Below are positions 43,937 through 64,000 of a stretch of 64,000 bases of DNA, piece by piece. This stretch comes from a virus (taxonomy: Duplodnaviria; Heunggongvirae; Uroviricota; Caudoviricetes). The stretch lies in the IMG/VR virus record IMGVR_UViG_2877251553_000001, positions 1-64,000 of that record. One strand, 5' to 3'. The notes beneath the pieces are model-generated. The model was not told where the DNA came from and made no database searches. It was given only the letters and a program-made list of their open reading frames with translations. The stretch's first letter is position 1. Every line of letters starts with the position of its first letter. The position numbers were made by a program, and so were the translations under genes.

Positions 43937-44297
43937 TCATTGCAAGGGCTCACAACCAGTAGTGTTGAGAAAACCATCGGAGAAATGAGGCTAAGCCTTT
44001 GAATTTACATAGTACAAAAAAGATACTTTTCCTCATAATGTGAGCTAATTTTATGTTTCGTTTGATGATTGGACCGGTCTCGAAAACCGTAGACACATAG
44101 TATGCGTTAATTTATGAACAAACTACTTGTCTGCTGTTTTTCTGTCATTAGTCGTATATAGAATGATTCTCTATGCCTAACAAAGCATCACCAGTGCTAG
44201 ATTACGTTGTAGTCACTGTTTAAATATCCAGATAAAACATTTCCTTCTGGGTTGAATGAGTGATAAAGTTTCACCCATTAGACCCCTTGGAGGAATT

Positions 44298-45730
44298 ATG
44301 TCTGAATTTGAAGTGTTGGCACAGCATCTGCTGAAGGAAGCCGAGGCGGAAGAAAAGCTGCGACAGGAAAATGATAAAAAGCTTATCGAGAAAGTGCTGG
44401 AAATCTATGATCAGAAGTATGTGGCTGAATTACTGAGAAAAGTCGGAAAAAATGAGTGGAGCCGTGAAACCATTAACCGCTGGATTAATGGCAAGTGTTT
44501 ACCAAAATCGTTGACTTCAGTAGAAGAGTCTCTTCTGCGTAAGATGCTACCAGAACCACCTGCAAACCATCCGGAATATGCTTTCCGCTTCATTGACTTA
44601 TTTGCTGGAATTGGAGGGATACGGAAAGGTTTTGAGGCCATTGGAGGCCAGTGTGTTTTTACCAGTGAATGGAATAAAGATGCTGTGCGTACATACAAGG
44701 CCAACTGGTTTAACGATGAACAGGTGCATAAATTCAATCTCGATATTCGGGAAGTCACGCTGAGTGATAAAACCGATGTATTGGAAACGGATGCTTATGC
44801 ATATATTGATGAGCATGTGCCGGATCATGATGTGCTTCTTGCGGGGTTCCCGTGCCAGCCATTTAGCCTTGCTGGTGTTAGTAAGAAAAACTCACTTGGT
44901 CGTGCGCATGGTTTTGAATGTGAAGCACAAGGAACACTTTTTTTTGACGTGGCACGTATTATACGAGCAAAAAAACCGGCAATTTTTGTGCTGGAAAATG
45001 TCAAAAATCTGAAGAGCCATGATAAGGGTAAAACTTTCAAAGTCATTATGGAGACCCTTGACGAGCTGGGCTACGAAGTTGCCGATGCTGCAGAAATGGG
45101 AAAAAACGATCCAAAGATTATCGATGGGAAGCATTTTTTGCCTCAGCATCGTGAACGCATTGTTCTGGTCGGATTTAGACGAGATCTGAATATTCACAAG
45201 GGGTTTACCTTGCGTGATATCAGTCGTTTTTATCCGGAACACCGCCCATCATTTGGTGAATTGCTGGAGCCTGTAGTCGACAGTAAATATATACTTACGC
45301 CAAAACTATGGGAGTACCTTTATAACTACGCCAAAAAGCATGCAGCCAAGGGGAATGGTTTTGGCTTTGGGTTGGTCAATCCTGAGAATAAGGAAAGCAT
45401 TGCACGCACACTTTCTGCCAGATATCACAAAGACGGATCAGAAATTCTTATTGATCGTGGTTGGGATATGGCAACGGGAGAGGCTGACTTTATGAATGAG
45501 AGTAATCAGGCTCGTCGACCACGCAGGCTGACTCCCGAGAGTGCGCACGCCTTATGGGATTTGAAAAACCTGGAGGGAAACCATTCCGTATTCCGGTTTC
45601 AGATACTCAGTCATATCGGCAGTTCGGTAACTCAGTTGTGGTGCCAGTATTTGAAGCTGTTGCCAGACTTCTGGAACCCTATATCCTCAAAGCTGTTTCT
45701 GCTGATGCTGGTAAGACTGGGCAGCCTTGA
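44298..45730 (+). CDS. DNA cytosine-5 methyltransferase (Dcm / M.EcoRII-like, CCWGG-type); -1 frameshift at a C-run near 45533
   Basis: Strong resemblance to remembered E. coli Dcm ([14 protein letters not shown]...GFPCQPFS...ENVKNL...[15 protein letters not shown]); restoring one C gives a Dcm-like C-terminus. Confidence 0.85.
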
Positions 45731-45764
45731 GAACATCTCCCGGCCTTTTAAGCCGGGAGTCAGC

Positions 45765-46979
45765 CTATGATAGTTCAGCGTAAAGCTCTATCAGCTCAGT
45801 AATGAATGCTCCGAGCGTTATTAATTCTTCTCTAACTGCTTCTGGGTATTTTTTATGTAAAGTTGATGGTACAACGAGTCTGACACCCGCATCTTTCATT
45901 TCTCGGTATTGTGCTGAAGAAACACCTTCTTGCAGTGTAAATAAATGTACCTGATGGATTTTATCTGCTTCATTCAGTATCTGACGCCAGCGATCTTTGC
46001 AGGTGGTCTTTACTGCCAGCATACGTAAGTTTTCTACAGGAAATTCAACGTTATGATATGCCTCTGCTGAAGGAAACAGGAAATCTGGTTTTTTATTACC
46101 TTCAGTAACTGCCTGAGTGGAGAAATGCCGTAGTCCGTGCTCGATAAAAAGCTTCTCTAGGTGAAGTTCAAGTGATTTGCCTGCCCTTGATTTACGTCGA
46201 TTACTGACAGAGTTGGCTAATGCAATAAACTCATCTACAGAATCGAATCCTTTCTTAATAATATCAAGAACATGTAATTCCTCGACGAGTAGAAAAATAT
46301 CATACTCGACACGCCGACGGTCAATCAGTTGCTCATCTGGATCCTTGGAGTTTTTAGCATAATGGCCAGCAGCATATTGAATAATTTCGTTTCCAGAAGG
46401 AAAACGCTTCTTCCAGTCTTCAGGAATAACATATTTATGATTTACTGGAGTTTGCTGAAGAGACAATCCGCCCAAAATTTGTCCGGCAGGGCCGGAAATT
46501 AGGGTTCCAGGTATGATTTCGCCAATAGCAGACTCGATGATATCCTCTTCATCGGGATTGACGCAGACCCATATATCTACCTCGGAACAGTCAGTGTTCT
46601 GTTCGTTTAACCTGAAAGCAAGAATTGTGAGGGCTCCTGTATTTTCAGGGTTCTGTAATGGACTTCCTCTCCCCCAGCGCGTAATTCTTTTTTCGTTTCG
46701 GGTCTTACCAAAATAACGGTTGTTGTAATAAATTGCGCGTGCTTGGGTATCAGGGCAATCATGGGATGATACATGCGCAGTAAGGAAGACTGAAGGGTTC
46801 AGTTCGCGAGTATGATTGATAGATGGAAAAAGCTTTTCAACGATATTTGAGGGGATATAAAGTCCGACCTGATGGCCACCTGTTGCGCCTGTGTCGTTTG
46901 CAGAAAGGCGTTTGATGTAGATAAAGTAATTCCCGCTTGCGATATCAAGCAGCCAGTTATGAAAAACCGACATATACAT
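45765..46979 (-). CDS. type II restriction endonuclease, EcoRII-like (CCWGG)
   Basis: 404-aa ORF convergent with the Dcm-like gene; N-terminus (M)[25 protein letters not shown] matches remembered R.EcoRII. Confidence 0.8.
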
Positions 46980-47572
46980 CCCTTTGTTAACATACAGTCA
47001 GGGTTAACATTTTTCCATAGTTATAGATAAGCGGCTAGGAACTTAAGGGAAAAACAAAAAGCCCGCATAAGCGGGCTTTTGTGTCACTCGAGAGCCGCGG
47101 CTCCTTTGCGTATCCTTTTTTGTCTCCTCACCGTCTGGTCGGTGTCCTGCTGAGACTGCTAACTTCCTGTTTTTGTTGGTGTTGCCCTTACACCGTCCAA
47201 TCATGATTGGTGGAGCTGGCGGGAGTTGAAACCGTAGCCACGTCGTATGCAAGAACGTGCTACGACTGGCTGGTGAACTTCCGATAGTGCGAGTATTGAA
47301 TGATTTCCAACTGTTATCGATTTTGCGTATTTTTTGCATGAGAGGATTTTTACCTCCTCCCACCGATCCTCCATGGCTTTACGCCAGTGTCTCTAGGACT
47401 GCTATGTGCCAAAAGCAGAACTTGCTTACATTGTGCTATGTTAATTTGTTGGGAGCAGGTCACAAAGTCCAGCCAGGACGAAAATAAATAATTGCCATAC
47501 ATTTAGTGTTGATTATTTCGGGATTGTTCATCTATTCTGATTGTATCAGCGAGCAGGCCGGAGTCACTCTTC

Positions 47573-47797
47573 GTGGAACATCCCATACTTCAGAAAACAA
47601 TCGTTCTCTTTATTCTTGCCCTATGGGTAATTGATCCATTCAGGACAAAGAGAAGAAAGCATACTGAATCCACCATTGAAGAAGCCGATGCCAGAGAACG
47701 TCATAAATGGCGATATCTCAGATGGGGAGTACGAACAATACAAATTGCAGCGACAGTATATATGTTTGCTATGCTGATTCAGTTTTTACTGAAGTAG
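47573..47797 (+). CDS. hypothetical small membrane protein
   Basis: 74-aa ORF with two hydrophobic segments in an otherwise unassigned region; weak. Confidence 0.25.
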   Translation: MEHPILQKTIVLFILALWVIDPFRTKRRKHTESTIEEADARERHKWRYLRWGVRTIQIAATVYMFAMLIQFLLK

Positions 47798-48641
47798 ACG
47801 GCTCAGGCAGGTACGACCGGACGGAATTGGCAGCCAATTCAGCGGAGGCCGGACGGGGTTAAACGTCCCCTCTGTGCCAGTGACCTGCTCCCCGTTGATT
47901 CACACGGAAGACTGTTAGAAATGTGCAATTTTTGCTCACAGCAGACTTTAAGAGTTGATTGTGTGTTGCACTGTGAGATCAAATCAAAACCAATATATTC
48001 AGGCATCTTCCCACAGCGCCCCCATTCAACAGGCAATTGCTCCTTATCAAATCCCTCAAACCAGTAAACACTACTTTTTGCCCAACAATAGGCACTTCTC
48101 CCCAACCCTAATGAAACAATGCGCGACTCCAGTCCGGCTTGAGACGACCATGCCGTTTAAGGCGCACACCATTACAAGCAGTTGCTCATATTGAGGGAAA
48201 GTTAATAAAGAAACTTAACGGCATTTCCTCTTTTGCGCACGTTTCAATTGCCTTGATATCCAGTCTTGGTTACGTTTGCGAATTTTTTGTTTCATTGGCT
48301 ACTGTTCTGATTCGACTCACTTATTAATCAATGATCTTACTGTATTCCAACGCCATGCTTTGTACAGGAATGTCCGCTTTTCGCTCATAACAGACATTAA
48401 CTACAGTTATGGTAGAAGGTATGCATGCTGGGTGGGGAAAGTATGAAGGAAAAGAAGACTGCTGCGCCGTTTGTCGTCACATTTATCTTCATTGGCTATG
48501 CAAGTCGTAATACAAGGTGGGACAAAACTGAGACACATAAGGCCTCGCAATGACTTGCAAGGCTTTACATGTTTTGATGTGGTGGGACGTGTGAGCGCAG
48601 TGTTGATGGGGTAATGCTTTGAATTAGAAGCGGATTCTTAT

Positions 48642-48687
48642 AATTCGTAATGCGAAGGTCGTAGGTTCGACTCCTATTATCGGCACC
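48642..48687 (+). repeat. 46-bp direct repeat of the thrW 3' end (prophage attR / island attL core)
   Basis: Identical to 1399-1444 (ATTCGTAATGCGAAGGTCGTAGGTTCGACTCCTATTATCGGCACCA). Confidence 0.85.
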
Positions 48688-48853
48688 ATTCAAACATCTC
48701 CCCAAGTCTACTAAAGTCTTTCAAAACCCCTTATAATCCGCGTATTAAAGCCCCGTTCGTCTTTTGACGCCTACTAAAGTCCCTCAAAATCTACGGTCAG
48801 ATGGGGGTACTTATGGGGGTATTTGCTGTTCGGTTTAGTGGAGGTACCCCCAA

Positions 48854-50068
48854 GTGAAACTCAATGCCCGTCAAATAGACACAGCCAAGCCAAAAGAGAA
48901 GGCTTACAAGCTGGCCGATGGTGGCGGTTTGTATCTCTTGGTAAAACCTAATGGAGGTAAATACTGGCGACTTAAATATCGTGTAGCTGGTAAAGAGAAG
49001 CTATTGGCACTAGGTGTGTATCCTGAGGTTACTCTAGCCGATGCTCGGGCAAAACGTGAAGATGCGAAAAGAGGTATCGCTGGTGGTATCGATCCGATGG
49101 AAGCGAAACGAGAGGAAAAGATTGCCCGGGAAACGCAGTTAAACAACACCTTCAAAGATATTGCCCTTGAGTGGCACAGCAGCAAATTAAAAAAATGGTC
49201 TGCTGGTTATGCTTCAGACATCCTCGAAGCCTTCAACAAAGATGTGTTCCCTTACATTGGCAAAAAACCAATCGCCGAAATCAAACCACTTGAACTTCTG
49301 AATGTGCTGCGGCGCATCGAGGGGCGCGGTGCTACAGAAAAAGCCAAAAAAGTGAGGCAGCGGTGCGGGGAAGTTTTCCGCTATGCAATAGTCACTGGTC
49401 GCGCAGAGTATAACCCTGCACCAGACCTTACTAGCGCGATGCAAGGCCATGAATCTAATCATTACCCTTTCCTTACAGCTAAAGAATTACCTGATTTTTT
49501 CAAGGCATTGTCCAGTTACTCAGGAAGCGCATTGGTTGTTATGGCGGCTCGTCTACTGATTATCATCGGCTTGCGGACTGGCGAACTACGTGGCGCATTA
49601 TGGGATGAAATTGATTTCAACAAGGCTATCTGGGAGATACCCGCTTCACGTATGAAAATGCGGCGGCCTCATATTGTGCCATTGTCTGATCAGGCTCTTT
49701 CGCTTATTGGGAAGATTAGAGAAATAACAGGCAATTACCCTCTTATGTTTCCCGGGCGCAATGATCCAAGGAAAACAATGAGTGAGGCCAGCATAAACCA
49801 AGTGTTTAAGCGCATTGGCTACGCTGGACGTGTAACTGGTCATGGGTTCCGGCACACTATGAGCACGATTTTGCATGAGCAGGGCTATAACACCGCGTGG
49901 ATAGAAACGCAGCTCGCTCACGTTGATAAGAACTCAATTCGTGGCACATACAACCATGCGCAATATCTGGATGGAAGGCGGGAGATGCTTCAATGGTATG
50001 CCGACTATATGGATGCGCTGGAGAAGGAGGAGAACGTTGTTCATGGTTCGTTTGGGAAACGAGCTTAA
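48854..50068 (+). CDS. P4-family integrase
   Basis: 404-aa tyrosine recombinase with P4-int-like N-terminus (MKLNARQIDTAKPKEKAYKLADGGGLYLLVKPNGGKYWRLKY); GTG start; just downstream of the tRNA repeat. Confidence 0.9.
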   Translation: MKLNARQIDTAKPKEKAYKLADGGGLYLLVKPNGGKYWRLKYRVAGKEKLLALGVYPEVTLADARAKREDAKRGIAGGIDPMEAKREEKIARETQLNNTFKDIALEWHSSKLKKWSAGYASDILEAFNKDVFPYIGKKPIAEIKPLELLNVLRRIEGRGATEKAKKVRQRCGEVFRYAIVTGRAEYNPAPDLTSAMQGHESNHYPFLTAKELPDFFKALSSYSGSALVVMAARLLIIIGLRTGELRGALWDEIDFNKAIWEIPASRMKMRRPHIVPLSDQALSLIGKIREITGNYPLMFPGRNDPRKTMSEASINQVFKRIGYAGRVTGHGFRHTMSTILHEQGYNTAWIETQLAHVDKNSIRGTYNHAQYLDGRREMLQWYADYMDALEKEENVVHGSFGKRA

Positions 50069-50131
50069 CTGTATGAATAGACCGTGTTAAGCAATGGTAG
50101 TAGACTTATGTAGACGAACAAAGAATAGGCT

Positions 50132-50482
50132 ATGTCTAGGCTGATCCCGAAAACCCGTACACCCCTACGGGCTGGCATAGCCGTCAGAATTAGGGGCGCG
50201 GGGTGGCGTATGGTGAGAGCCAAAAAACAAGATTTAGCATGGTTTGATATTAGTAATTATGAATTTTTAAATGATTTAACCTTGCCGGACTTGATTCAAG
50301 AATTAGAGTGGCGCGATTTTTTATTGCGTCATGCAAAAGATGACACTGCTATATTCAAAGAAGAGTACGATATAAAATATGAAAGGATTTTTTCGGGCGA
50401 TCCTAACCTAACCATTCTCAATGAAGAAGAGGAAGAGGTCGAAGAATTTATTCGCAAAGTAAATGATGAAGCCCATCATTAA
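50132..50482 (+). CDS. hypothetical protein (116 aa)
   Basis: AT-rich ORF in the int-alpA interval. Confidence 0.4.
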   Translation: MSRLIPKTRTPLRAGIAVRIRGAGWRMVRAKKQDLAWFDISNYEFLNDLTLPDLIQELEWRDFLLRHAKDDTAIFKEEYDIKYERIFSGDPNLTILNEEEEEVEEFIRKVNDEAHH

Positions 50483-50555
50483 GAAATGAGTACGATGATC
50501 TACCCTCATTATCTTCAGCTATGGGGTTAGTCCAGTAACATTTTCAGAGCTGGCC

Positions 50556-51088
50556 ATGTACTCTTTCTCATCGATAGATCAAGGCTTTTTTAAAAGAGAC
50601 GAAGAGGATTGCTACCTCAAGGCAAACGCTATGCTTGCGAGTGTTACTGGAAACCTAAGTAATTGTTCCCCTAACATCATACTCGTTTCTATAGATTTAG
50701 ATGACGCCACTGATGACGAAATTATTACCAGCCTGACTCACCTTCTACCTCTATGGCGAAAAGAGTTAAAAGTACCAGAGAGAGAGCATGTCGCTCAGAA
50801 AAGGATTGGATTAAAGACCCTTCAGAAGTTGATATCTAATAGAGTGATACCTATTGTTGATCTGCTGATTTGGGTGAGAAGTCAGGTAAGGAAGTGAGCA
50901 ATCCGATGATTTCTGCCTTGGTTTTTAGTGATGATCCGAAAGATACGCAGGCTATTAAGGAATCAATAAAGCCTTTTGCACTTGAATCTATAAGCGAGAG
51001 ATACACCCGCTTGCTTCAGCTTTATGTAAACAAAGACAGAGAAATGAGCTTGATAAAAATATCTGATTTAATGAGTAGAGATTTATAG
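50556..51088 (+). CDS. hypothetical protein(s): two overlapping ORFs (113 and 72 aa), possibly one gene with a frameshift
   Basis: ORFs 50556-50897 and 50870-51088 in adjacent frames; AT-rich. Confidence 0.3.
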
Positions 51089-51285
51089 CAAGCAAAATCC
51101 TACGTAAACGTTTTAAGTAAATTTCGCGATTTCCGCTTTGAATACGCTACTGTGTATTTCAAAGCGGATAATCTTCTCAAAAAAATATTTTATTTTTATC
51201 CGCTATCACCCATTCACCGGTTTGTTTAATCTCCTTTCTGTCTACTGATGTCCATTAAAGAAGATGACAGAATATAGGAGTAAAC

Positions 51286-51483
51286 ATGTCTCAATCATTT
51301 ATTCGTCTTTCTGAGGTTCAACGCCGTACTGGTTACAGCAAAGTGTGGATTTATCGGCTCATCAAAGAACAGCGATTCCCTCAATCTGTAAAGATTGGAA
51401 GCCGATCAATTGCGTTTATTGAAAGTGAAATTGAAGAATGGATTAATCAGCGCATCGCTGAGTCGCGTGGCGAGGTAGCGTAA
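51286..51483 (+). CDS. alpA: AlpA-family transcriptional regulator
   Basis: 65-aa protein MSQSFIRLSEVQRRTGYSKVWIYRLIKEQRFPQSVKIG, typical of P4/CP4-57 AlpA. Confidence 0.7.
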   Translation: MSQSFIRLSEVQRRTGYSKVWIYRLIKEQRFPQSVKIGSRSIAFIESEIEEWINQRIAESRGEVA

Positions 51484-51821
51484 TGAATAAGAAAAACCGC
51501 CCATTACAGGCGGCTAATTCAGATATTCGCGTATCTGATGTTACGCCCCTTACAAAATCCCTTCAAGCACCAAAGCGCACACCGAAAAAGCATCGTGCCA
51601 GAGTCTATATGCTGCGTACTGGTATAGAGGGATGGACAGAAAATGACATTCTTCGCTACTGCCGTCTGTCTTCTGGTCGTAACTATGCAACAGAGTTAGA
51701 ACGCCAGCTTGGAATCACTCTGGAACGTATCGACGAAAAGAATCCTGATGGTATCGGAACACACCTTCGCTACCGTTTCTCCTGCCGTGGTGATGTTCTG
51801 AAAGTGATCACTCATATGTAA
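51483..51821 (+). CDS. hypothetical protein
   Basis: 112-aa ORF overlapping alpA stop. Confidence 0.4.
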   Translation: MNKKNRPLQAANSDIRVSDVTPLTKSLQAPKRTPKKHRARVYMLRTGIEGWTENDILRYCRLSSGRNYATELERQLGITLERIDEKNPDGIGTHLRYRFSCRGDVLKVITHM

Positions 51822-51947
51822 GGCAGTATGACTTTCCGTGAGACAGATGCTGGCCAACGTGGGATATTTAACGCGGGTTAACATCGTTGTCAGAGCCGCA
51901 TGGGTGAGCTGTTGCTACACCCCGGTATTTCCACCACGGAGGCCAGC

Positions 51948-53074
51948 ATGAACAACAATAACACATTGTACGTCGGGTTAGATGTTCACAAAGAATCGAT
52001 TACTGTCGCTTATGCTATCAATTCAGAACCTGTTGAACTGATGGGTAAAATTGGCACATCACCTACTGATATTCAGAATCTTTGTAAACGTCTCAGGTCA
52101 AAGTCATCGCAGGTCAGTATCGTTTATGAAGCGGGGCCCTGTGGTTATGGACTTTATCGTCGGCTGGTGAAATCCGGTTTTGACTGCATGGTCTGCGCCC
52201 CTCACTTATCCCGAAAAAACCGGGGGAGCGGGTTAAAACCGATCGCCGTGATGCCATCAGACTTGTGCGTTCACTGCGTGCAGGAGATCTTTCTGCTGTC
52301 TACGTACCCGGCATTGAAGATGAGGCATTCCGGGATTTGGCCCGGGCATGGGCATCTGCCCGCGATGATTTACGGCATGCAAGGCAACGTCTGAAATCGT
52401 TTCTTCTGGTTCATGGGGTCCATTATGTCGGGCGAGCAGATTGGGGCCCTGCACACCGACGCTGGCTCAGCAAATACTCATTCGAAAGTCCCTGGCGACA
52501 ATTAGCTTTTGACGAACACCGTCGTACAATAGAAGACCGGCAGGCACAATGTGAACGGCTGGAATCCGCCCTGAAGGAGGCCGTTACCGAATGGAGGCTG
52601 TATCCGGTAGTAGAGGCGCTGCAAGCCATGCGAGGGATTCAGTTTATTACTGCGGTTGGATTAATTTCTGAACTGGGTGATCTGACCCGTTTTGAACATC
52701 CACGACAACTGATGTCATGGTTTGGTATCACGCCATCAGAATATTCATCGGGTGGAAGCAGACATCAGGGCAGCATTACCAAAGCCGGAAACAGCTATGC
52801 CAGAAAGCTATTGGTCGAGGCAGCGTGGAGTTACCGTCATCCGGCACGCATCAGTCCGGCAATACAAAAAAGGCAGGAAAATTTACCCCGCCCCGTCATT
52901 GACAGAGCATGGGATGCTCAACTCAGGCTCTGTAAGAGGTATCGAAAACTTCAGGCCAAAGGAAAGAATGTCAATATTACAATTGTTGCTGTTGCACGTG
53001 AGCTGGCGGGTTTTATCTGGGATATGGGCCGAATAGCAATGTCTGTCGCACAACAACCACAATGTCACAAATAA
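51948..53074 (+). CDS. IS110-family transposase; -1 frameshift in A/G runs near 52215-52235
   Basis: N-terminus MNNNNTLYVGLDVHKESI (DEDD RuvC-like) and C-terminal IS110-type domain; two ORF-track pieces. Confidence 0.75.
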
Positions 53075-53366
53075 AAAATGAGAATAACCAGTTCCCTGAA
53101 GGCGACGTAGCCCGGTACAAGAGTAACCCACGTTAGCGCTTGGCGACGGCGGAACAAAGCTGATTCGCGACGTAAGAAAGTGGCAGGCTCATATGACGGA
53201 CCTCTGTAATGCGGTATCCAACCCGCGAATATCAGCGTGATTCACCGTCGGATTTACTGCTACGTCGCCCTCAGGGAATTAAACCTAAAAAGAAAATCGT
53301 CAAAATTAGAGATTCCGGTTTGACACGGAAAGTCATATCAGCGTCAACGGAGCACCGTATTGACGC

Positions 53367-54958
53367 TTATTTATTGGTGAGTGCTACGTTCCATGGCAGG
53401 AGTTCGTCAACACGGTTGGAAGGCCATTCCGGCAGTACGCTCAGGATATAGCGCAGATACGCTTCCGGATCGATACCGTTCAGTCGGCAGGTGCCGATCA
53501 GCCCGTACAGTAGCGCACCACGCTCTCCACCGTGATCGCTGCCGAAGAACATAAAGTTTTTCTTTCCGAGACAGACTGCACGAAGCGCTCTTTCCGCGGC
53601 ATTATTATCCGCCTCAGCCAGACCATCATCACTGAAGTTGCACAACGCAACCCAGTGCTTCCTGATATACCGGAACGCATCTCTCAGACGGCATTTTTTC
53701 GATAACGTCTGTTCTTTCTCCTGCATCAGCTTATACAGGGAAGTCAGTAGCGGTTTACTCTGCATTTGCCTGACCGCCAGGCGTTCAGACACCGGCAACC
53801 CGCGTATTTCGTGCTCGATGGCGTACAGCTCACCGATTAGTTTCAGGGCTTCTTCCGCTGTCGCGCTTTTGGTACTGATATATACATCGTGGACTTTGCG
53901 CCGCGCATGAGCCCAGCATCCTGCTTCCGTCAACGCGCCGCCTTCTCGTTCGGCACTGAACAGCCGATCGTAACCATTAAACGCATCTGCCTGCAGGATA
54001 CCCCGGAAGGGACTAAGGTGCTGCTCCGGATGTTTACCCTGATGGTCCGGTGAGTAGGCGAACCAGACCGCCGGAGGCTCTGGCGAACCGGCATTCCTGT
54101 CATCCCGGACATACGTCCAGATATATCCTGTTTTCGCCTTCTTCCTGCCCGGTGCCAGCACTTTTACTGGTGTGTCATCAGTGTGAACTTTGCGGCTGTT
54201 CATCACATAACGGTACAGAGCATCATTCAGCGGCGTCATTAACTGGCAGCACGCGTCAACCCAGTTGGAGAGTAATGCACGGCTCAGTTCGACACCCTGA
54301 CGGGCAAAAATTTCACTCTGACGATACAGTGGCAGGTGTTCGCAGTATTTTCCCGTTAACACGCGGGCAAGTAACCCCGGGCCCGCGATACCACGCTCTA
54401 TCGGACGGGATGGTGCCGGTGCTTCAACGATGCAGTCACATTTTGTACAGGCTTTTTTTACCCGTTCTGTGCGGATCACTTTCAGAGCGCTGCTCACCAG
54501 TTCCAGTTGTTCTGCGCTGACTTCCCCAGATAATCCAGCTCACCGCCACACTCCGGGCAACAGCTTTCTTCTGGCTCCAGGCGATTTATTTCGCGGGGCA
54601 GATGCTCCGGTAACGGGCGACGATGACGAGACTGTCGCAACTGGCGGGGAACCTGCGGATCGTCTTCCCGCCCACTGTAACGATCACTGTCCTGTTCGCG
54701 TTGTTTCAGCAGGGCCTCAGCCTGTTCAACTTCACGACGCAGTTTTTCAGAACGGGTACCGAACAGCATCCGGCGCAGTTTTTCTATCTGAGCCCGCAGA
54801 TGTTCTATTTCCCGTTCATCTTCTTCGATCTTTTCTTCGGCGCGGGCCAGTGCAGAGCGCAGGAAGGCCTCCGTCTCTTCAACCAGACTCAGTTGCTGGT
54901 CTTTCTGACGGAGCTGGCATTCCAGTTCTGCAATGCGAATGAGGTATTTTTGATTCAT
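53367..54958 (-). CDS. IS66-family transposase TnpC; frameshifted
   Basis: N-terminal leucine-zipper/zinc-finger (CPECGGEL) piece 54494-54958 and DDE piece 53367-54497. Confidence 0.8.
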
Positions 54959-54988
54959 GGCCGTTTTTATAATCCGGCCATGACATTT

Positions 54989-55348
54989 TTACAACATTGT
55001 CAGTGCGTTAAGGCGGGATGTTTTTGGCTGACGCCAGTCCAGCTTATCGAGGAGCATTGCCAGTTGCGAGCGGGTAATGGATACCTTGCCGTCACGCACA
55101 GCAGGCCAGATAAACTGGCCTTCCTCCAGGCGTCTGGTGAACAGGCACAGACCATCAGCATCAGCCCACAGGATTTTAATCATGTCACCCCGTCGGCCAC
55201 GGAAGATGAACAGGTGACCGGAGAAGGGATTATCATTCAGCACATGCTGTACCTGTTCACCCAGCCCGTTGAAAGACTTACGCATATCGGTTATCCCAGC
55301 AACGAGCCAGATGCGGGTGCCTGACGGGAGTGAGATCATCGTCCCCAC
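54989..55348 (-). CDS. IS66-family accessory protein TnpB (Orf2)
   Basis: 119-aa ORF typical of IS66 orf2. Confidence 0.75.
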   Translation of the reverse strand: MGTMISLPSGTRIWLVAGITDMRKSFNGLGEQVQHVLNDNPFSGHLFIFRGRRGDMIKILWADADGLCLFTRRLEEGQFIWPAVRDGKVSITRSQLAMLLDKLDWRQPKTSRLNALTML

Positions 55349-55767
55349 CCGGTCAGTTCACGGATCAACACTGTGAGCAGCTCTGGTGAAGGATTTTCCA
55401 GCGTCATGTTACCGTGACGGAACTCCACCTTGCAGGAGCTGGCACTAACTGTAGTCTGAGTAGATAAAGACGGAGTAAGAGCAGCCACCGGTTCTTTCGG
55501 CTCATCCGGCGTTATCTCCACAGGTAATAATTCAACGCCAGTGTCAGAAGAGGTTGTTACCGGAAGACGCCGCGATATGCGCCCTTCGTTCTGCCAGAGC
55601 CTGAGCCATTTGAACAGCAGGTTATCATTGATATCGTGTTCCCGGGCAATACGGGCAACAGAGGCTCCTGGTTGTGAAGCCAGTTTAACCATTTGAAGTT
55701 TAAACTCATTTGAAAATGATCTGCGGGTTCTGCAGATAATGCTTTCTGTTCCATAACAGGTGTCCAC
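55336..55767 (-). CDS. IS66-family accessory protein TnpA (Orf1)
   Basis: 143-aa ORF upstream of TnpB; IS66-type terminal repeat GTAAGCGTAAACTGACCGCCG (revcomp) near 55815-55840. Confidence 0.7.
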   Translation of the reverse strand: MDTCYGTESIICRTRRSFSNEFKLQMVKLASQPGASVARIAREHDINDNLLFKWLRLWQNEGRISRRLPVTTSSDTGVELLPVEITPDEPKEPVAALTPSLSTQTTVSASSCKVEFRHGNMTLENPSPELLTVLIRELTGWGR

Positions 55768-55848
55768 TAGTTGAAAAGGTGGGCACCTACGTTACCAATA
55801 CAGGCTTAATGGCTACATACGGCGGTCAGTTTACGCTTACACTCATAT

Positions 55849-57164
<1,316 letters not shown>

Positions 57165-57357
57165 TGATTCTGTAACTCATATTTGCCCAACAATTCGTCC
57201 GCTTCCTAAATAGCTTCTGGTACGCCATTGAGCAGTGACATAACCGCGCCAATCATTAACTTGTCTCTGTTGCTGGGGCTGGCCCCTTCAAGCCAGAACC
57301 CTAAAACAGTCTGAACCTGTTCGATGCGACATTGCGCTTCAATGAGCTGGATGTTGG

Positions 57358-57621
57358 TCATTTCGCACTCTCCACATCGATTAAACCGATATCTATCAGG
57401 GAGGTAACTTTTTGTAGCCAGCTATTGATTACTGTCGCCTGTTCCCCTCCCACCGAGGGAACAATCTCATTCATCACATGAACCAGACCTGTGCGCGCTC
57501 TGGTAAGCCGTTCAGTCGCGCAATCTGCGGGAGTGAATGTGTCTGGATATGGCTCTTCACGCCCCAGCAATGATTCAATTTCCAGCTCACACGGATGACG
57601 ATAAATTAAGTTGATATTCAT
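57358..57621 (-). CDS. hypothetical prophage-remnant protein
   Basis: 87-aa ORF in a minus-strand gene string. Confidence 0.3.
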   Translation of the reverse strand: MNINLIYRHPCELEIESLLGREEPYPDTFTPADCATERLTRARTGLVHVMNEIVPSVGGEQATVINSWLQKVTSLIDIGLIDVESAK

Positions 57622-57869
57622 TTTTCACCCCCAAGAATTACCAGCTCGGCACGGGCATCGTTAACCAAAGATGAGCACGCTTTAATCGCATCCACGACAT
57701 CAGTAGCGTCCATTTCTTCAGCCGAAAGACTGACAGCAACCAGGACAGCCGCTGCTTGCTCGATTAATTGAAGTGCGGACGTAAGGCGAGGGGTATTAAT
57801 TGAGTTATTCATTGGTTGCCCCCGTTTTTCCTGGCATTTCGCCACCTTCCAGCAGGAAATGAACGTCAC
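57618..57869 (-). CDS. hypothetical prophage-remnant protein
   Basis: 83-aa ORF, overlapping stop/start with neighbour. Confidence 0.3.
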   Translation of the reverse strand: MTFISCWKVAKCQEKRGQPMNNSINTPRLTSALQLIEQAAAVLVAVSLSAEEMDATDVVDAIKACSSLVNDARAELVILGGEK

Positions 57870-58872
57870 GAACGGCGAGATCCAATATCGCGAGTAACGC
57901 CTTCAGTCTTTCGTCTCGTGAGGGAGAGTTGCTCACCAGAATGTCGTTAATCACTTCTGTCAGTGTGATGATCTGGCTTGTGCGTTCGAGGGGATCCATA
58001 TGCACATCGTAGGTTTTAATCATGTGCCACCTCCATGCGGATACGACCAGCAAAAAAGCAGATGTGATCGCGCACCAGAGAACGGCGAGCATCGCGTTCA
58101 GACTCGGCAGCAATATGATGAATTTTGGCGGTAATTGTCGGGCAATCGCGGCGAACTGCGGCGATAATCCAGATAAATTGCGGTTTTTGGGTAGGGGTAG
58201 TAGCCAGCATGTGGCAGCCTCCATTCGATAGCATGTAACGCTACCACCGGAAACGCCAATTTCGCTGGTGGTAGCCCAGACAGGGTTGGCGTAACCGGCT
58301 CGAATGGATACCGGCGCTTCCGAAGAAGCCCCTGCCTGAGCCACCATTGATTGACAAAGGCGCTGGATTATACACCAACGCCCAAAAAATGGGTGAGTCA
58401 GACCTACGACATAAAAAAAGACGCTCGGCGCGTCATATGTCGCCATTCGATTTACCAGGACGCCAATCCCGGCACCCGTTTTATGAGGTGCCTTATAACC
58501 ATAAACCGTGTTGCCGCATAACGGCAAGCTCTTTTTTATGGACTCCGAAAACTCACTATTGGAAGAACCAGAAGCACAGTACATCGCGCTCATTTCGTTA
58601 ACGTCACGCGCGTGGACGAATGTTTTTGTGGAGTCACTACACGAGCTGAAGACATCATCTACGACCAGAAATTTTCTGGCGCAGCCGCTGACCTTCTCAA
58701 TGCTAATATCATCGCCCGAGATTTCTGGTATGGTTAAGGCATCCGTTCCGACCACAAGCAAATGATAAACTTTGCTTGTATCTGCTGTATTAATGCCTGA
58801 CTTTGCCGTCATATTTCTGGATTTTGGCGACATGCCAGCCAGTGAAAATGTCTTCTTCTGGACGGGTATCAT
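57805..58872 (-). CDS. hypothetical protein, paralog of 7649-8485 (probably frameshifted)
   Basis: Shares core AGAGIGVL...[17 protein letters not shown] with the prophage early gene. Confidence 0.4.
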
Positions 58873-59040
58873 TGGTTAACCTCCGCGAACTCCTTCATGA
58901 AACGCGCCAGCGGTTGTACGCATGGCGATTGATACCCGTCGCGATAAAACGTCACTCGGTTGTGAGACACGCTTTCGACAGTAACGAGTGCTCCGTGGGC
59001 ATCTTTGTAGCGTTTTTGTGGTTGTGGTGTTCCTGTTGGC

Positions 59041-59874
59041 TTAGACATTGAGCGCCTCCAGACGCTTGGCGAGCCAGCGTTGCGACAGGCGGGTGAGTTC
59101 TCCTTTGCGCTGCTCATATTCCATGCCCATATCAATTAACGTGATATTGGTGCTTTCGAGATATGAGAGGTGCTCAAGCTGTTCTGCGTTCATATGGTCG
59201 CGAGGTTCGCCAGAATAGCCATTTATCCGCGCCCACTGCTTAGCAGTTAGCCCACCAAGAACGATACGAGAAATCATATTGCTCTCGTTTGTGTAGTGGT
59301 GTTGCTGCGTCGTTTTCCCCATCTCGGCACGGGCCATATTCAGCGCATCGCACATTGGCTTAAAGTTGTTTGCGGCACTGATACGGGCTTTTAGCTGGCG
59401 ACGATAGCGTGCGGCGATTTCAGGCACGCTACGCTGTAATTCTTCCTCGCACTGGATGAAATAACGGCGGATAGCGTGACCCTGATCATTGCGTTCGATC
59501 ATTGCCAGTTCTTTCGCCATTCCGACACTTAACAGATAGTCTTTGCCGGGTCTGCCAGACTGCTTAATCTTGCTGTAAGCCGCGCCATTCGGGCTTTTCC
59601 CCAAATTTGGGGAAATTGTTTTATGGACTGAGTAATCGTGCCCAATGGTGAAGTCATATTCAGAGATGCGATCAGTGATCCATGTAGAGAAGTCTTTTCC
59701 CACGCCCAACGCTTTGTGTAACGCTTTTGCGCTAACAATATTGGTTTCACGCCCACCGATATGACCAGGAATAACCGGGACAATTGCGGCAAATTCATTA
59801 CCGTTAATTGTGCTCAGAGAGGCGTTCAGATGAGGGGCGGCCTCAGAAATTAATCTGCTTTTTTCGATGTTCAT
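59041..59874 (-). CDS. phage antirepressor-like protein (AntA/KilAC-type)
   Basis: 277-aa ORF; N-terminal region resembles AntA-type antirepressor domain. Confidence 0.45.
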   Translation of the reverse strand: MNIEKSRLISEAAPHLNASLSTINGNEFAAIVPVIPGHIGGRETNIVSAKALHKALGVGKDFSTWITDRISEYDFTIGHDYSVHKTISPNLGKSPNGAAYSKIKQSGRPGKDYLLSVGMAKELAMIERNDQGHAIRRYFIQCEEELQRSVPEIAARYRRQLKARISAANNFKPMCDALNMARAEMGKTTQQHHYTNESNMISRIVLGGLTAKQWARINGYSGEPRDHMNAEQLEHLSYLESTNITLIDMGMEYEQRKGELTRLSQRWLAKRLEALNV

Positions 59875-59997
59875 TTTCAGTCTCCGTTAAGCGGCGTTAA
59901 ACGCGTCCGGGTAGAGTTTCAGAATGTCGGCAATTTCCTGCTGAGAAAGTCCGTTGTGATCATTTATGTTCGCAAGATGGTTAATATGAAGTGGTCA

Positions 59998-62324
<2,327 letters not shown>

Positions 62325-62548
62325 TGACGCTCATCACGCAGTTGTTTGACCCATCCTGTCATTGTGGAAAGGCCAACATCCATAGCTTTGGCGGCATCTG
62401 CCACCGTGTATTTCTGGTCAACAACCAGTTGAGCGGATTCGCGTTTAAACTCTGCGCTAAAATTTCTTTTTTTCATTGGAGCACCTGTGTTGTTCTGAGG
62501 TGAGCATATCACCTCTGTTCAGGTGGCCAAATTCAGTGTGCCACTTCA

Positions 62549-63110
62549 GAACCAGACGTTCGCTCCTACAGCACCAAATCAGGTCTGGGTGGCGGACCTG
62601 ACGTATGTTGCCACACAGGAGGGATGGTTGTACCTCGCTGGCATCAAAGATGTTTATACGTGCGAAATTGTCGGCTACGCCATGGGAGAGCGCATGACAA
62701 AAGAGCTGACAGGTAAAGCCCTGTTTATGGCGCTCAGGAGCCAGCGCCCACCTGCCGGGCTAATCCACCACTCTGATCGAGGTTCACAGTACTGCGCATA
62801 CGATTACCGGGTCATACAGGAGCAGTCTGGTCTGAAAACATCAATGTCGCGTAAAGGTAACTGTTACGACAACGCTCCGATGGAAAGCTTCTGGGGAACG
62901 CTGAAAAATGAGAGCCTGAGCCACTATCGTTTTAATAACCGGGATGAAGCCATCTCAGTAATACGGGAATACATTGAGATTTTCTACAATCGTCAGCGTC
63001 GTCACTCTCGTCTGGGGAATATCTCCCGGCAGCCTTCAGGGAAAAATATCATCAGATGGCTGCTTAAAAAAAGAACAAATGGTAGTGTCCGCTATTGCCA
63101 GTACACCTCA
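62549..63110 (+). mobile_element. IS3-family element fragment (3' part of orfB), truncated by IS911
   Basis: DDE transposase C-terminal half (HHSDRGSQY...YDNAPMESFWGTLKNE); family member not identified; right boundary approximate. Confidence 0.55.
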
Positions 63111-63582
63111 CCGGGTGGCATGGATAAACCCGGAAGAGAGTAAATCAAACCGCGCAATTGGCGTTGCGCTGAATGATACTGCATGTCGCGTATTGAAAAA
63201 ACAAATCGGGAATCATCACCGTTGGGTATTTGTGTATAAGGAAAGCTGTACCAAACCAGACGGAACGAAAGCGCCAACAGTCAGGAAGATGCGGTATGAC
63301 GCAAACACAGCCTGGAAAGCGGCGCTGAGACGAGCAGGTATTGATGATTTCAGATTTCACGACTTGAGACACACCTGGGCAAGTTGGCTGGTTCAAGCCG
63401 GAGTCCCGTTATCAGTGTTACAGGAAATGGGAGGCTGGGAGTCTATCGAAATGGTTCGTCGATATGCTCACCTCGCACCTAATCACCTTACCGAACACGC
63501 ACGGCAAATAGACTCGATTCTGAACCCATCGGTCCCAAATTTGTCCCAGTCAAGAAATAAGGAACGTACTAATGATGTGTAA
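63110..63582 (+). pseudogene. integrase 3' fragment (about 98 percent identical to the C-terminus of int at 1459-2622), truncated by IS insertion
   Basis: ...[17 protein letters not shown]...[10 protein letters not shown]...VRRYAHL... with two substitutions versus the prophage int; followed by TTTAAATCAATAAG-type att junction in inverted orientation. Confidence 0.8.
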
Positions 63583-63809
63583 CTTATTGATTTAAATGGA
63601 TAATAGGAACAATACACATAGGCGATAAGCTTTGTTTTTGTTGCCTTTTTTATTGTTCATTTTTTATAGATACCCCCAAAAGTACCCCCATATCTTTTTC
63701 CGCCCCTGAAATTTGGTTGTTATTCATACAGCATATCAGGCGGTAACGCTCTCCCTTTAACCCACTTATTGTATGATAGTGCTATCCCACAATAAGGAAT
63801 CAGCCAGCC

Positions 63810-64000
63810 ATGAGAATGACCAGTCGCAAAAAAGAGATACTTAGCTACTTTGAACCGGATAACCTCGAATGGGTGACTGGTGAGATTGGTGCGCCGCCGT
63901 TCGATGTGTCGGGTGTGGCCTACCTGCTTCATGGCATGGTGTCGTTCGATAAGCGTCACCAGCTCGAATCAACCCGGCGCACACTGGAAAGCATGGTTGC
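63810..64000 (+). CDS. hypothetical protein, 5' partial (runs off window end)
   Basis: ATG with AAGGA RBS; open to the window end (MRMTSRKKEILSYFEPDNLEWV...). Confidence 0.3.
   Translation, partial: MRMTSRKKEILSYFEPDNLEWVTGEIGAPPFDVSGVAYLLHGMVSFDKRHQLESTRRTLESMV

What the first reader, a model, noticed from the sequence alone, without database searches (positions are those of the whole stretch)
50132..51088. Small AT-rich ORFs in the integrase-alpA interval of the P4-type island
The int-proximal interval of P4-like integrative elements is a known hotspot for compact defence or toxin-antitoxin cargo. Here about 1 kb of AT-rich DNA encodes a 116-aa protein and two overlapping small ORFs (possibly one ~180-aa protein with a frameshift), none recognisable.
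Basis: partly seen in the sequence, partly recalled or inferred. Interest (0 to 1): 0.5.

Follow-up and report, generated by a model that had tools for sequence, protein, structure and literature searches.

The report
Frameshifted DUF6387 gene with RNA leader
The three small ORFs are pieces of one already-catalogued gene of unknown function (DUF6387), preceded by a catalogued RNA motif, in the cargo slot of a decayed phage-satellite-like island. The breaks are most likely sequencing errors, so the finding is largely ordinary, although the RNA-gated design of the slot deserves a follow-up.

Summary
The ORFs exist and the DNA is AT-rich, but they are not three unknown genes. ORF1, ORF2 and ORF3 are fragments of one 293-codon gene (true start 50210, stop 51088). 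It belongs to Pfam DUF6387 and matches the intact RefSeq protein WP_000251023.1 of E. coli O111 islands at thrW. The window lacks three single bases, each in a C or G run. All 16 indels found in about 27 kb of the window against near-identical references are the same kind of -1 G/C-run deletion. They break prophage and IS genes too, so an assembly artefact is the likeliest cause. The first 26 codons of ORF1 overlap Rfam RF02996, the int-alpA RNA (50129-50195). A hairpin loop of this RNA is complementary to the Shine-Dalgarno of the downstream gene, with two independent compensatory changes. The same leader precedes four unrelated cargo genes in other E. coli islands, so the int-alpA interval is a real cargo slot, apparently under translational control. 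DUF6387 sits directly upstream of alpA in 44 of 44 loci. It has no PADLOC, PDB or fold match. Its function is untested; gated anti-phage or competition cargo is my best guess. The island here is cut by an IS at 51818.

The parts
48643..48688 (+). Partial 3' copy of tRNA-Thr (thrW). It forms the left attachment repeat of the island, which sits in tandem behind a lambdoid prophage that occupies thrW proper (1369-1444).
   Evidence: One search finds thrW at 1369-1444. The sequence was read. Near-identity to the O111 thrW island begins exactly at 48643.
48854..50068 (+). P4-family tyrosine integrase, 404 aa, intact.
   Evidence: Pfam Arm-DNA-bind_3, Phage_int_M and Phage_integrase. It is 99.8% identical to WP_000772642.1.
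50100..50115 (+). Two direct GTAGAC hexamers 10 bp apart, the inverted form of the GTCTAC-N5-GTC motif also seen at attL (about 48706) and upstream of alpA (51240). Candidate AlpA or Int binding sites.
   Evidence: GTAGAC/GTCTAC occurs 5 times in 3.3 kb here, against 13 times in the whole 64 kb window. The motif is conserved at the same place in L004, L005 and L012. Binding was not tested. The AlpA-type RDF SEN1998 binds att regions in ROD21 (PMC8844411).
50129..50195 (+). int-alpA RNA motif (Rfam RF02996), the 5' leader of the cargo gene. The loop of its second hairpin (CACCCC, 50161-50166) is complementary to the Shine-Dalgarno GGGGTG (50200-50205).
   Evidence: cmscan gives 47.2 bits against a gathering score of 35.8, E 6.7e-8. 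On 15 leaders, 94.6% of cells are paired and 7 pairs change on both sides. Loop/SD complementarity holds across 20 leaders, with compensatory pairs CACCCC/GGGGTG (window, L003) and TACCTC/GAGGTA (L053) against the usual CACCTC/GAGGTG.
50210..51088 (+). DUF6387 family gene (293 codons when intact), read here as three ORF fragments because one base is missing in each of three homopolymer runs (50472-50474 CCC, 50523-50526 GGGG, 50872-50874 GGG).
   Evidence: Pfam hits, alignment to intact alleles L001 and L002, 374-member cluster P0001 named 'DUF6387 family protein', and 97 E. coli genomes carrying the interval with none sharing the deletions.
51074..51104 (+). Hairpin overlapping the DUF6387 stop codon (GTAGAGATTT...AAATCCTAC). 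A possible terminator, attenuator or operator ahead of the alpA promoter region.
   Evidence: The right arm is conserved outside the coding sequence in 5 of 7 diverse loci. The simple terminator scan did not call it.
51286..51483 (+). alpA, the AlpA-family regulator or recombination directionality factor, 65 aa, intact.
   Evidence: Pfam Phage_AlpA, 67.5 bits. An AlpA-family ORF follows DUF6387 on the same strand in 44 of 44 loci with room downstream.
51483..51817 (+). 5' three quarters of the 143-aa island gene (WP_001035842-like). Similarity to the O111 island ends at 51817/51818, where ISSso6/IS66 sequence starts, so the rest of the island (AntA, primase and so on) is missing here.
   Evidence: Alignment to L001 breaks at 51818. 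The IS annotation comes from H66/L051.

Best explanation
The interval holds one transcription unit, not three genes. A roughly 67-nt structured leader, the catalogued int-alpA RNA (RF02996, 50129-50195), is followed 14 nt later by a single DUF6387 gene (50210-51088). That gene lies directly upstream of alpA in the remnant of a PICI-type satellite island integrated at a thrW repeat.

The three-ORF appearance comes from three missing bases in C/G homopolymers. These are most probably base-calling or assembly errors (about 0.8), because the whole window shows the same error signature. Otherwise the copy is a recent pseudogene.

How it most likely works:
- Shown: the slot between int and alpA holds interchangeable single-gene cargo.
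- Shown: every cargo gene found inherits the same leader.
- Shown by complementarity and covariation: the leader's hairpin loop is an anti-Shine-Dalgarno sequence that can pair with the ribosome-binding site of the cargo gene.
- Inferred: the cargo is therefore kept translationally silent until some signal, such as helper-phage infection or island induction, opens the structure.
- Inferred only: DUF6387 is an acidic, mostly helical cytoplasmic protein with a basic C-terminal domain and no detectable relatives of known function. It is most likely an accessory effector serving the island, either anti-phage or inter-element competition cargo.

Confidence by step: identity of the parts about 0.95, artefact origin of the frameshifts about 0.8, cis anti-SD gating about 0.55, defence or competition role about 0.35.
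For: One gene:
- Pfam DUF6387 hits on two fragments at successive profile positions.
- End-to-end alignment to intact 293-aa alleles, differing by three 1-bp deletions.
- A family of 47 close clusters and 508 clusters at 50% identity, with 65 invariant columns among 28 sequences.

Artefact:
- 10 of 10 indels against a 99.6%-identical prophage and 3 of 3 against an IS pair are -1 deletions in G/C runs.
- These deletions break terminase, portal, capsid, J and transposases.
- No A/T-run indels were seen.
- None of 97 E. coli genomes carries the deleted allele. IMG/VR holds 0 copies against 6 intact ones.
- No RefSeq complete genome covers at least 80% of any of the three multi-kb stretches of the window that I searched (44000-56000, 56200-64000, 51818-55800).

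Leader:
- RF02996 scores above its gathering threshold, with covariation.
- Loop/SD compensatory changes.
- The single-sequence MFE fold also pairs the loop region with the purine blocks next to the start codon.

Cargo slot:
- Five mutually unrelated proteins sit behind the same leader, and the slot is empty in L016.

Linkage to alpA: 44 of 44 loci.

Literature:
- PICI 5' end carries immune systems (PMC11364771).
- alpA is the helper-induced master activator of Gram-negative PICIs (PMC6092414).
Against: - No PADLOC hit for DUF6387 or any sister cargo, and no experimental test anywhere in the searched literature.
- DUF6387 was never found away from alpA, and almost never in phages or plasmids. 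That is unusual for promiscuous defence genes and fits a life-cycle role equally well.
- EARL/ROD21-type copies lack a detectable int-alpA RNA.
- CACCUC is also the anti-SD of 16S rRNA, so any strong SD will look complementary to the loop. The covariation rests on only two independent events.
- The leader's folding energy is not better than shuffles (z = -0.28).
- Three of the four G/C runs of 4 or more bases in this gene are hit, against about 10% of runs elsewhere. A real pseudogene in a decaying island therefore cannot be excluded.
Confidence: 0.55

Rival explanations
1. DUF6387 is not cargo but a life-cycle partner of AlpA, for example a modulator of alpA expression or of AlpA/Int-mediated excision. 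It would be co-inherited with its cognate alpA allele as a two-gene module.
For: - An AlpA-family ORF lies directly downstream on the same strand in 44 of 44 loci, with DUF6387 identity from 23 to 100%. The backbones are unrelated: PICI-like, capsid-forming PICI-like L019, and EARL/ROD21-like L020, L022, L024 and L026.
- L016 shares 97-98% identical int and downstream genes but lacks DUF6387 and has an alpA only 73% identical, so DUF6387 and alpA swap together.
- The literature notes that in most ROD21-like islands the RDF gene 'is accompanied by an 843 bp gene of unknown function' (PMC6035254).
- The C-terminal domain is basic, pI 9.3.
- The gene is essentially absent from phages and plasmids.
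Against: - PICIs without it excise, replicate and transfer normally (EcCICFT073 in PMC6092414; EcCIMP1 in PMC11773190).
- Four unrelated proteins occupy the same position behind the same leader.
- No DNA-binding domain or fold was detected.
- It diverges faster than AlpA or Int, and there is a tandem paralogue pair in L025. Both are more typical of conflict genes.
Confidence: 0.25
2. The copy in this window is a real pseudogene, inactivated by three independent slippage deletions after the island was crippled by the IS insertion.
For: - The island is truncated at 51818, so selection on its cargo could be relaxed.
- Three of the four G/C runs of 4 or more bases in the gene are hit, more than the window-wide rate of about 10% per run.
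Against: - There are three indels but only one substitution in 879 bp, in DNA otherwise about 99.8% identical to intact alleles.
- The same -1 G/C-run signature is present in 13 of 13 other indels across prophage and IS genes, with none in A/T runs.
- The allele is absent from 97 E. coli genomes and from IMG/VR.
Confidence: 0.2
3. The int-alpA RNA acts in trans as a small RNA, or as a processed c4-like antisense RNA, rather than as a cis anti-SD leader. Its position ahead of the cargo would then be incidental.
For: - Rfam files it as 'Gene; sRNA'.
- These islands also use c4/isrK-type RNAs further downstream.
- A closed outer stem (P1) would suit a stable processed RNA.
Against: - The motif always ends 14-17 nt before the start codon of whichever cargo gene is present, and it is absent when the slot is empty.
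- The loop covaries with the adjacent SD.
Confidence: 0.2
4. The three ORFs are separate small proteins, such as a toxin-antitoxin pair plus a third gene, as first proposed.
For: ORF2 and ORF3 overlap by 28 nt, which superficially resembles translational coupling.
Against: - All three are collinear pieces of one conserved 293-aa protein.
- The ORF boundaries coincide with single-base homopolymer deletions.
- No TA domain was found.
Confidence: 0.02

Closest known systems
Pfam PF19924 (DUF6387) / RefSeq WP_000251023.1; in the literature SEN1999 of Salmonella ROD21 and ORF28 (KPNJ2_RS09320) of ICEKp258.2
   Same: Same protein family: the fragments score 36 and 72.5 bits against a cut-off of 28.9. 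The restored sequence is identical or nearly identical to the RefSeq protein. The position, immediately upstream of an AlpA-family gene, is the same (PMC10763509, PMC6035254).
   Different: The EARL-island members are only 24-29% identical. They sit at the attR end, divergent from int in the circular form, and lack a detectable int-alpA RNA. The window copy is frameshifted. No member has a tested function.
Rfam RF02996, the int-alpA RNA motif (found by comparative genomics; Weinberg et al. 2017, PMC5737381; I could not read the details of the original description)
   Same: Full-length match above the gathering score, the same two-hairpin-in-a-stem structure, and the same location between int and alpA.
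   Different: Rfam lists it as an sRNA of unknown role. Here it is seen to abut the start codon of a variable cargo gene and to carry an anti-SD loop that covaries with that gene's SD. Whether this was already noted by its discoverers I could not check, because the supplement is not held.
Accessory or immune hotspots of phage satellites: the 5' end of Gram-negative PICIs (Fillol-Salom 2022, as cited in PMC11364771), the int-stl interval of SaPIs (PMC6092414), and EcCIMP1 at thrW (PMC11773190)
   Same: Same position (just after int), same kind of element (int-alpA-...-primase), same attachment site as EcCIMP1, and presence/absence and replacement polymorphism of single genes.
   Different: None of the cargo genes here matches a known defence family, and none has been tested. 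A shared structured leader has not, to my knowledge, been described for this hotspot.
Phage P1/P7 c4 antisense RNA controlling icd-ant (Rfam RF01695); from my own knowledge of the system
   Same: A structured RNA is encoded just upstream, in the same transcript as its target, and its loop pairs with the ribosome-binding site of the next gene. These islands also carry real c4/isrK copies further downstream.
   Different: It is not a member: RF01695 does not match here, the architecture differs (one anti-SD loop inside a closed stem), and processing and trans action are untested.

Membership tests
Pfam PF19924 (DUF6387) | Profile HMM score at or above the gathering threshold (28.9 bits) | tested here: met
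   ORF1 scores 36.0 bits (profile 5-80) and ORF2 scores 72.5 bits (profile 137-205). The restored protein equals cluster P0001, annotated PF19924.
Pfam PF19924 (DUF6387) | A single uninterrupted protein of about 250-320 aa covering the whole profile | tested here: not met
   As written, the window gives three ORFs. An intact 293-aa reading needs one base restored in each of three homopolymer runs. Relatives are 278-320 aa.
Rfam RF02996 (int-alpA RNA) | Covariance-model score at or above the gathering score (35.8 bits), full-length | tested here: met
   47.2 bits, model positions 1-71 of 71, E 6.7e-8 at 50129-50195 (+).
Rfam RF02996 (int-alpA RNA) | Consensus helices kept by compensatory changes in relatives | tested here: met
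   Across 15 leaders the outer helix is 96.7% paired (2 pairs with double changes) and the inner hairpin 94.4% (4 pairs with double changes). At most 2 of 500 shuffles reach the observed values.
Gram-negative PICI (phage-inducible chromosomal island) | int, alpA and a pri-rep replication module in one direction, with no phage structural genes, about 10-20 kb | tested here: not met
   The window has int and alpA, but the island is cut by ISSso6/IS66 at 51818 and no primase follows. Relatives with the same int-DUF6387-alpA do carry a Zn_Ribbon_Prim/Toprim_3/DUF927 primase. The window copy is therefore a remnant of such an element.
Gram-negative PICI (phage-inducible chromosomal island) | Excision, replication and packaging induced by a helper phage | not testable with these tools
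   Shown only for other islands (EcCICFT073, PMC6092414; EcCIMP1 at the same thrW site, PMC11773190).
P4-like satellite | [quoted passage not shown] | tested here: inconclusive
   The integrase is P4-type. No psu, sid or delta appears in the 6 kb downstream of relatives, but whole islands were not examined and the window copy is truncated.
Known anti-phage defence systems (PADLOC-DB 2.0.0) | HMM match to any component model | tested here: not met
   There is no hit at E <= 1 for the fragments. There is none at E <= 0.1 for the intact protein, a distant member, or four sister cargo proteins.
Toxin-antitoxin pair | Two separately translated small genes, with a recognisable toxin or antitoxin domain | tested here: not met
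   The overlapping ORFs are halves of one protein. No TA domain was found in Pfam or NCBIfam.
EARL/ROD21-like island 'RDF-accompanying gene' (SEN1999 type) | A gene of about 840 bp of the DUF6387 family next to the AlpA-type RDF, at the end of an Asn-tRNA island with MOBQ/TraD, H-NS and DUF4756 genes | tested here: not met
   The protein family and the adjacency to alpA are shared. The window island, however, sits at thrW behind its integrase and belongs to the PICI-like backbone, not the EARL backbone.

The most novel reading that the evidence does not exclude
The int-alpA interval of enterobacterial PICI-type satellites would be a dedicated, RNA-gated expression slot. A conserved anti-Shine-Dalgarno leader (the orphan Rfam motif int-alpA) would keep interchangeable single-gene effectors translationally off until the satellite or its helper phage is activated. 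These effectors are DUF6387 and at least four unrelated proteins of 239-310 aa, none of them in PADLOC. They would be unrecognised anti-phage or anti-competitor systems, or alternatively variable helper-phage sensors feeding into alpA.
Probability: 0.3. Interest if true: 0.65.

Novelty: already known. Interest (0 to 1): 0.35.

Why it matters
For this window the result is mostly a correction. One catalogued gene and one catalogued RNA were mistaken for three novel ORFs, probably because the assembly drops bases in G/C runs. Anyone mining this window, or the genome it comes from, for 'small novel ORFs' will meet the same trap in many genes.

Three points reach beyond the window:
- An orphan Rfam motif (int-alpA RNA) can now be tied to a concrete job, as the leader of the variable cargo gene next to the integrase, with a testable anti-SD mechanism.
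- DUF6387 is shown to be invariably paired with alpA across PICI-like, capsid-forming PICI-like and ROD21/ICEKp258.2-type islands. The last group includes islands of clinical clones such as K. pneumoniae ST258.
- The slot offers a short list of five uncharacterised single-gene candidates for satellite-borne defence or helper sensing. How Gram-negative PICIs sense their helper phage is still an open question (PMC6092414).

Tried and rejected
- A profile search of PDB sequences found nothing. PHROGs gave only phrog_23422, of unknown function. NCBIfam gave nothing.
- A profile query to the word-indexed protein database returned only the close clade again.
- The 265-aa occupant of the same slot in EC20 was tested as a possible distant DUF6387 and rejected (hhalign probability 0.04; hmmsearch). 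YfjH of CP4-57, which lies between intA and alpA in K-12, is on the opposite strand and in another PHROG.
- The Tai system of PICIs was considered and rejected: it lies next to pri, not int.
- EcCIMP1_002 was considered as a homologue and rejected: it is a far smaller protein, described as about 10% of the size of UvrB.
- The sigma-70 and terminator consensus scans found nothing convincing in the two intergenic gaps.
- I first read Yokenella L007 as a third compensatory loop/SD change, then rejected it. There the loop pairs with a shifted purine block, not with the aligned SD.
- The supplement of the paper that described int-alpA RNA is not held, and the Cell 2022 PICI-immunity paper is not held.

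Full report
**What is in the sequence.** The window carries tRNA-Thr(CGT), thrW, at 1369-1444. About 47 kb of lambdoid prophage follows. A 46-nt partial copy of the thrW 3' end lies at 48643-48688, and behind it a second, smaller island. That island reads as follows:
- a P4-family integrase at 48854-50068
- the flagged interval
- alpA at 51286-51483
- a short ORF at 51483-51821

The interval is AT-rich, with GC 0.35-0.41 against 0.45-0.49 for the integrase.

**The three ORFs are one gene.** Pfam places ORF1 on positions 5-80 and ORF2 on positions 137-205 of the same 258-position profile, PF19924 (DUF6387). Both score above the curated cut-off. The interval is present in 97 of 5,426 complete E. 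coli genomes, in 84 of them at 99% identity or more. There RefSeq annotates one 293-aa 'DUF6387 family protein', WP_000251023.1, between the integrase and the alpA-type regulator.

A base-by-base alignment shows that the window differs from these intact alleles by one substitution and three single-base deletions:
- CCC instead of CCCC at 50472-50474
- GGGG instead of GGGGG at 50523-50526
- GGG instead of GGGG at 50872-50874

The net loss of three bases is why ORF1 and ORF3 share a frame. The annotated start of the intact gene corresponds to ATG 50210 (MVRAKKQDL...), and all relatives start there. The 26 extra codons of ORF1 (50132-50209) are out of frame in most other E. coli copies, which carry one more C at 50145.

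**Are the frameshifts real?** I compared other parts of the window with near-identical references.
- Over 20 kb of prophage (99.6% identical to E. coli O25b:H4 CP015085) there are 74 substitutions and 10 indels. All 10 indels are single bases missing from the window, nine of them a G within a G run of at least four (the tenth, at 18416, is a T next to a G run). They split the terminase, portal, capsid and J genes, which are intact in the reference.
- Over 4 kb of ISSso6/IS66 (99.6% identical to FDAARGOS_943) the three indels are again -1 deletions, in C5, C5 and G4 runs. They split two transposases.

So 16 of 16 indels have one signature, and none lies in the many long A/T runs. In three searches with multi-kb stretches of the window, no RefSeq complete genome covered at least 80% of the query. 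The deleted DUF6387 allele is absent from the 97 E. coli genomes and from IMG/VR, which holds six intact copies. I conclude, as an inference at about 0.8, that the frameshifts are homopolymer under-calls of the assembly.

The caveat is that three of the four G/C runs of 4 or more bases in this gene are hit, against about 10% of such runs elsewhere. The island is also decayed, so a true pseudogene cannot be excluded.

**The leader is a catalogued RNA.** A scan of 48500-52000 against Rfam gives a full-length match to RF02996, 'int-alpA RNA', at 50129-50195 on the + strand. It scores 47.2 bits against a gathering score of 35.8. The motif lies directly ahead of the DUF6387 start. On 15 leaders from different genera the two Rfam helices are 94-97% paired, with six pairs changed on both sides.

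Reading the alignments, I noticed that the loop of the inner hairpin (usually CACCUC) is the exact complement of the purine hexamer 4-5 nt before the start codon (usually GAGGUG). Two independent lineages changed both partners together:
- the window/O111 allele has CACCCC with GGGGTG
- the ZF34 island (L053) has TACCTC with GAGGTA

Wobble intermediates exist in other lineages. In the window allele a second purine block (AGGGG instead of AGAGG) also follows the loop change. The single-sequence MFE fold pairs the loop region with these blocks.

This supports, but does not prove, a cis-acting anti-Shine-Dalgarno leader. There are three caveats:
- CACCUC is also the 16S anti-SD sequence.
- Only two compensatory events exist.
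- The folding energy is not unusual.

**The interval is a real cargo slot.** Islands with 91-98% identical integrases carry different contents between int and alpA:
- nothing, and no RNA motif (CH4784, L016)
- a 265-aa coiled-coil protein (EC20, STEC388, Ec-RL2-1X)
- a 310-aa protein (LR-33)
- a 239-aa protein (ZF34)
- a 251-aa protein (F8111-1SC3)
- DUF6387, or a DUF6387 only 23% identical to the window allele (L044)

The four non-DUF6387 proteins are unrelated to DUF6387 and to one another. Each starts 14-17 nt after a copy of the same int-alpA RNA. None matches PADLOC or Pfam. EcCIMP1, an experimentally proven PICI at the same thrW site, has yet another small gene there (PMC11773190).

Relatives of the window island continue with a 143-aa gene, AntA/Ash-type genes, isrK and c4 RNAs, and a Zn-ribbon/Toprim/DUF927 primase. 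This is the Gram-negative PICI layout (PMC6092414). In the window the island stops at 51817/51818, where IS sequence begins, so only a remnant is left.

**What DUF6387 is.** The family is large, with 508 clusters at 50% identity. It is conserved (65 invariant columns among 28 sequences at 42-92% identity), acidic overall (pI about 4.6-5.1) with a basic C-terminal domain, and predicted to be mostly helical. It has no sequence or fold relative of known function. It is essentially absent from phage and plasmid records.

Its one striking property is context. In 44 of 44 loci with sequence downstream, an AlpA-family ORF follows on the same strand within about 200 bp. This holds at 23-100% identity and on unrelated backbones:
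- PICI-like islands
- a 16,971-bp circular capsid-forming-PICI-like element of K. pneumoniae (L019)
- ROD21/ICEKp258.2-type islands, where the pair sits at the attR end

The literature has noticed the gene only in passing. [quoted passage not shown] It is also ORF28 of ICEKp258.2 (PMC10763509). The neighbouring AlpA-type protein SEN1998 binds attL and attR (PMC8844411). Nobody has tested the DUF6387 gene.

**How it most likely works.**
- Shown: one leader plus one gene, interchangeable cargo behind a shared leader, loop/SD complementarity with covariation, and strict adjacency to alpA.
- Inferred: the leader holds translation of the slot gene off until a signal linked to induction of the satellite or its helper.
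- Inferred: the cargo serves the island in conflicts with phages or rival elements. This fits the reported use of the PICI 5' end for immune systems (PMC11364771), the presence/absence and replacement polymorphism, the faster divergence than Int and AlpA, and a tandem paralogue pair (L025).

The main rival is a life-cycle role with AlpA. It is favoured by the invariable pairing and by the joint swapping of DUF6387 with its alpA allele. It is disfavoured by fully functional PICIs that lack the gene.

**Verdict.** However, the 'unrecognisable small ORFs' are a frameshifted reading of a known DUF gene and a known RNA motif, in a truncated island within a window that shows systematic homopolymer errors. 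As a finding in this window it is ordinary. The RNA-gated cargo slot and the DUF6387-alpA pairing are modestly interesting leads that need experiments.

Noticed in passing
window 18416, 19795, 22137, 24307, 25380, 34986, 37227, 37430, 37605, 37781; 52197, 54523, 55724: Systematic single-base deletions in G/C homopolymers relative to 99.6%-identical references. They split the terminase, portal, capsid, J, ISSso6 and IS66 genes. Many apparent pseudogenes or small ORFs in this window are probably assembly artefacts.
   Followed up: yes
window 1459-48640: A lambdoid prophage of about 47 kb occupies thrW proper, so the island under study sits in tandem behind a second, partial thrW repeat. The right end of the prophage carries a DNA cytosine methyltransferase (44256-45770) and a type II restriction endonuclease (45765-46979, minus strand).
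   Followed up: partly
window 57805-60981 (minus strand): A second PICI-like remnant in inverted orientation. Its ORFs match ash-family, antA/AntB antirepressor and tyrosine recombinase genes of other E. coli islands, and it is flanked by IS3-family sequence.
   Followed up: no
window 51074-51104, and the same place in L004, L005, L009, L015: A hairpin overlaps the DUF6387 stop codon (consensus GTAGAATTT...AAATTCTAC). Its right arm is conserved outside the coding region. It could be a terminator, attenuator or operator ahead of alpA.
   Followed up: partly
window 48704-48795, 50100-50115, 51238-51255: GTCTAC-N5-GTC-type repeats lie next to the attL core, in inverted form between int and the RNA leader, and about 40 nt upstream of alpA. 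They are conserved in other genera and are candidate AlpA or Int binding sites.
   Followed up: partly
L052:2513-3526 (E. coli LR-33, WP_003838289.1), and window ORF1 50132-50209: The AUG inside the outer stem of the int-alpA RNA is taken as a start codon by ORF callers and by RefSeq. This adds a spurious 'MSRLIP...' N-terminus of 26-27 residues to whatever cargo gene follows.
   Followed up: yes
L025:1737-3421: A metagenome-derived contig carries two tandem DUF6387 paralogues (263 and 297 aa) between the integrase and alpA.
   Followed up: no
L019 (CP018459.1, 16,971 bp, circular, filed as a K. pneumoniae plasmid): This 'plasmid' carries an integrase, a distant DUF6387, an alpA-like gene, and terminase, capsid and head-tail adaptor genes. 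It looks like the excised circular form of a capsid-forming PICI-type satellite.
   Followed up: no
L003, L012, L016, L028, L031, L037 (about 3-3.5 kb downstream of alpA): Relatives of the island carry adjacent isrK and C4 antisense RNA genes (Rfam RF01394, RF01695). This part is lost from the window copy.
   Followed up: no
window 50143-50145: The first hairpin of the RNA leader has CCC where nearly all other E. coli copies have CCCC; only strain E2863 shares it. This may be one more homopolymer under-call, or a real polymorphism.
   Followed up: partly
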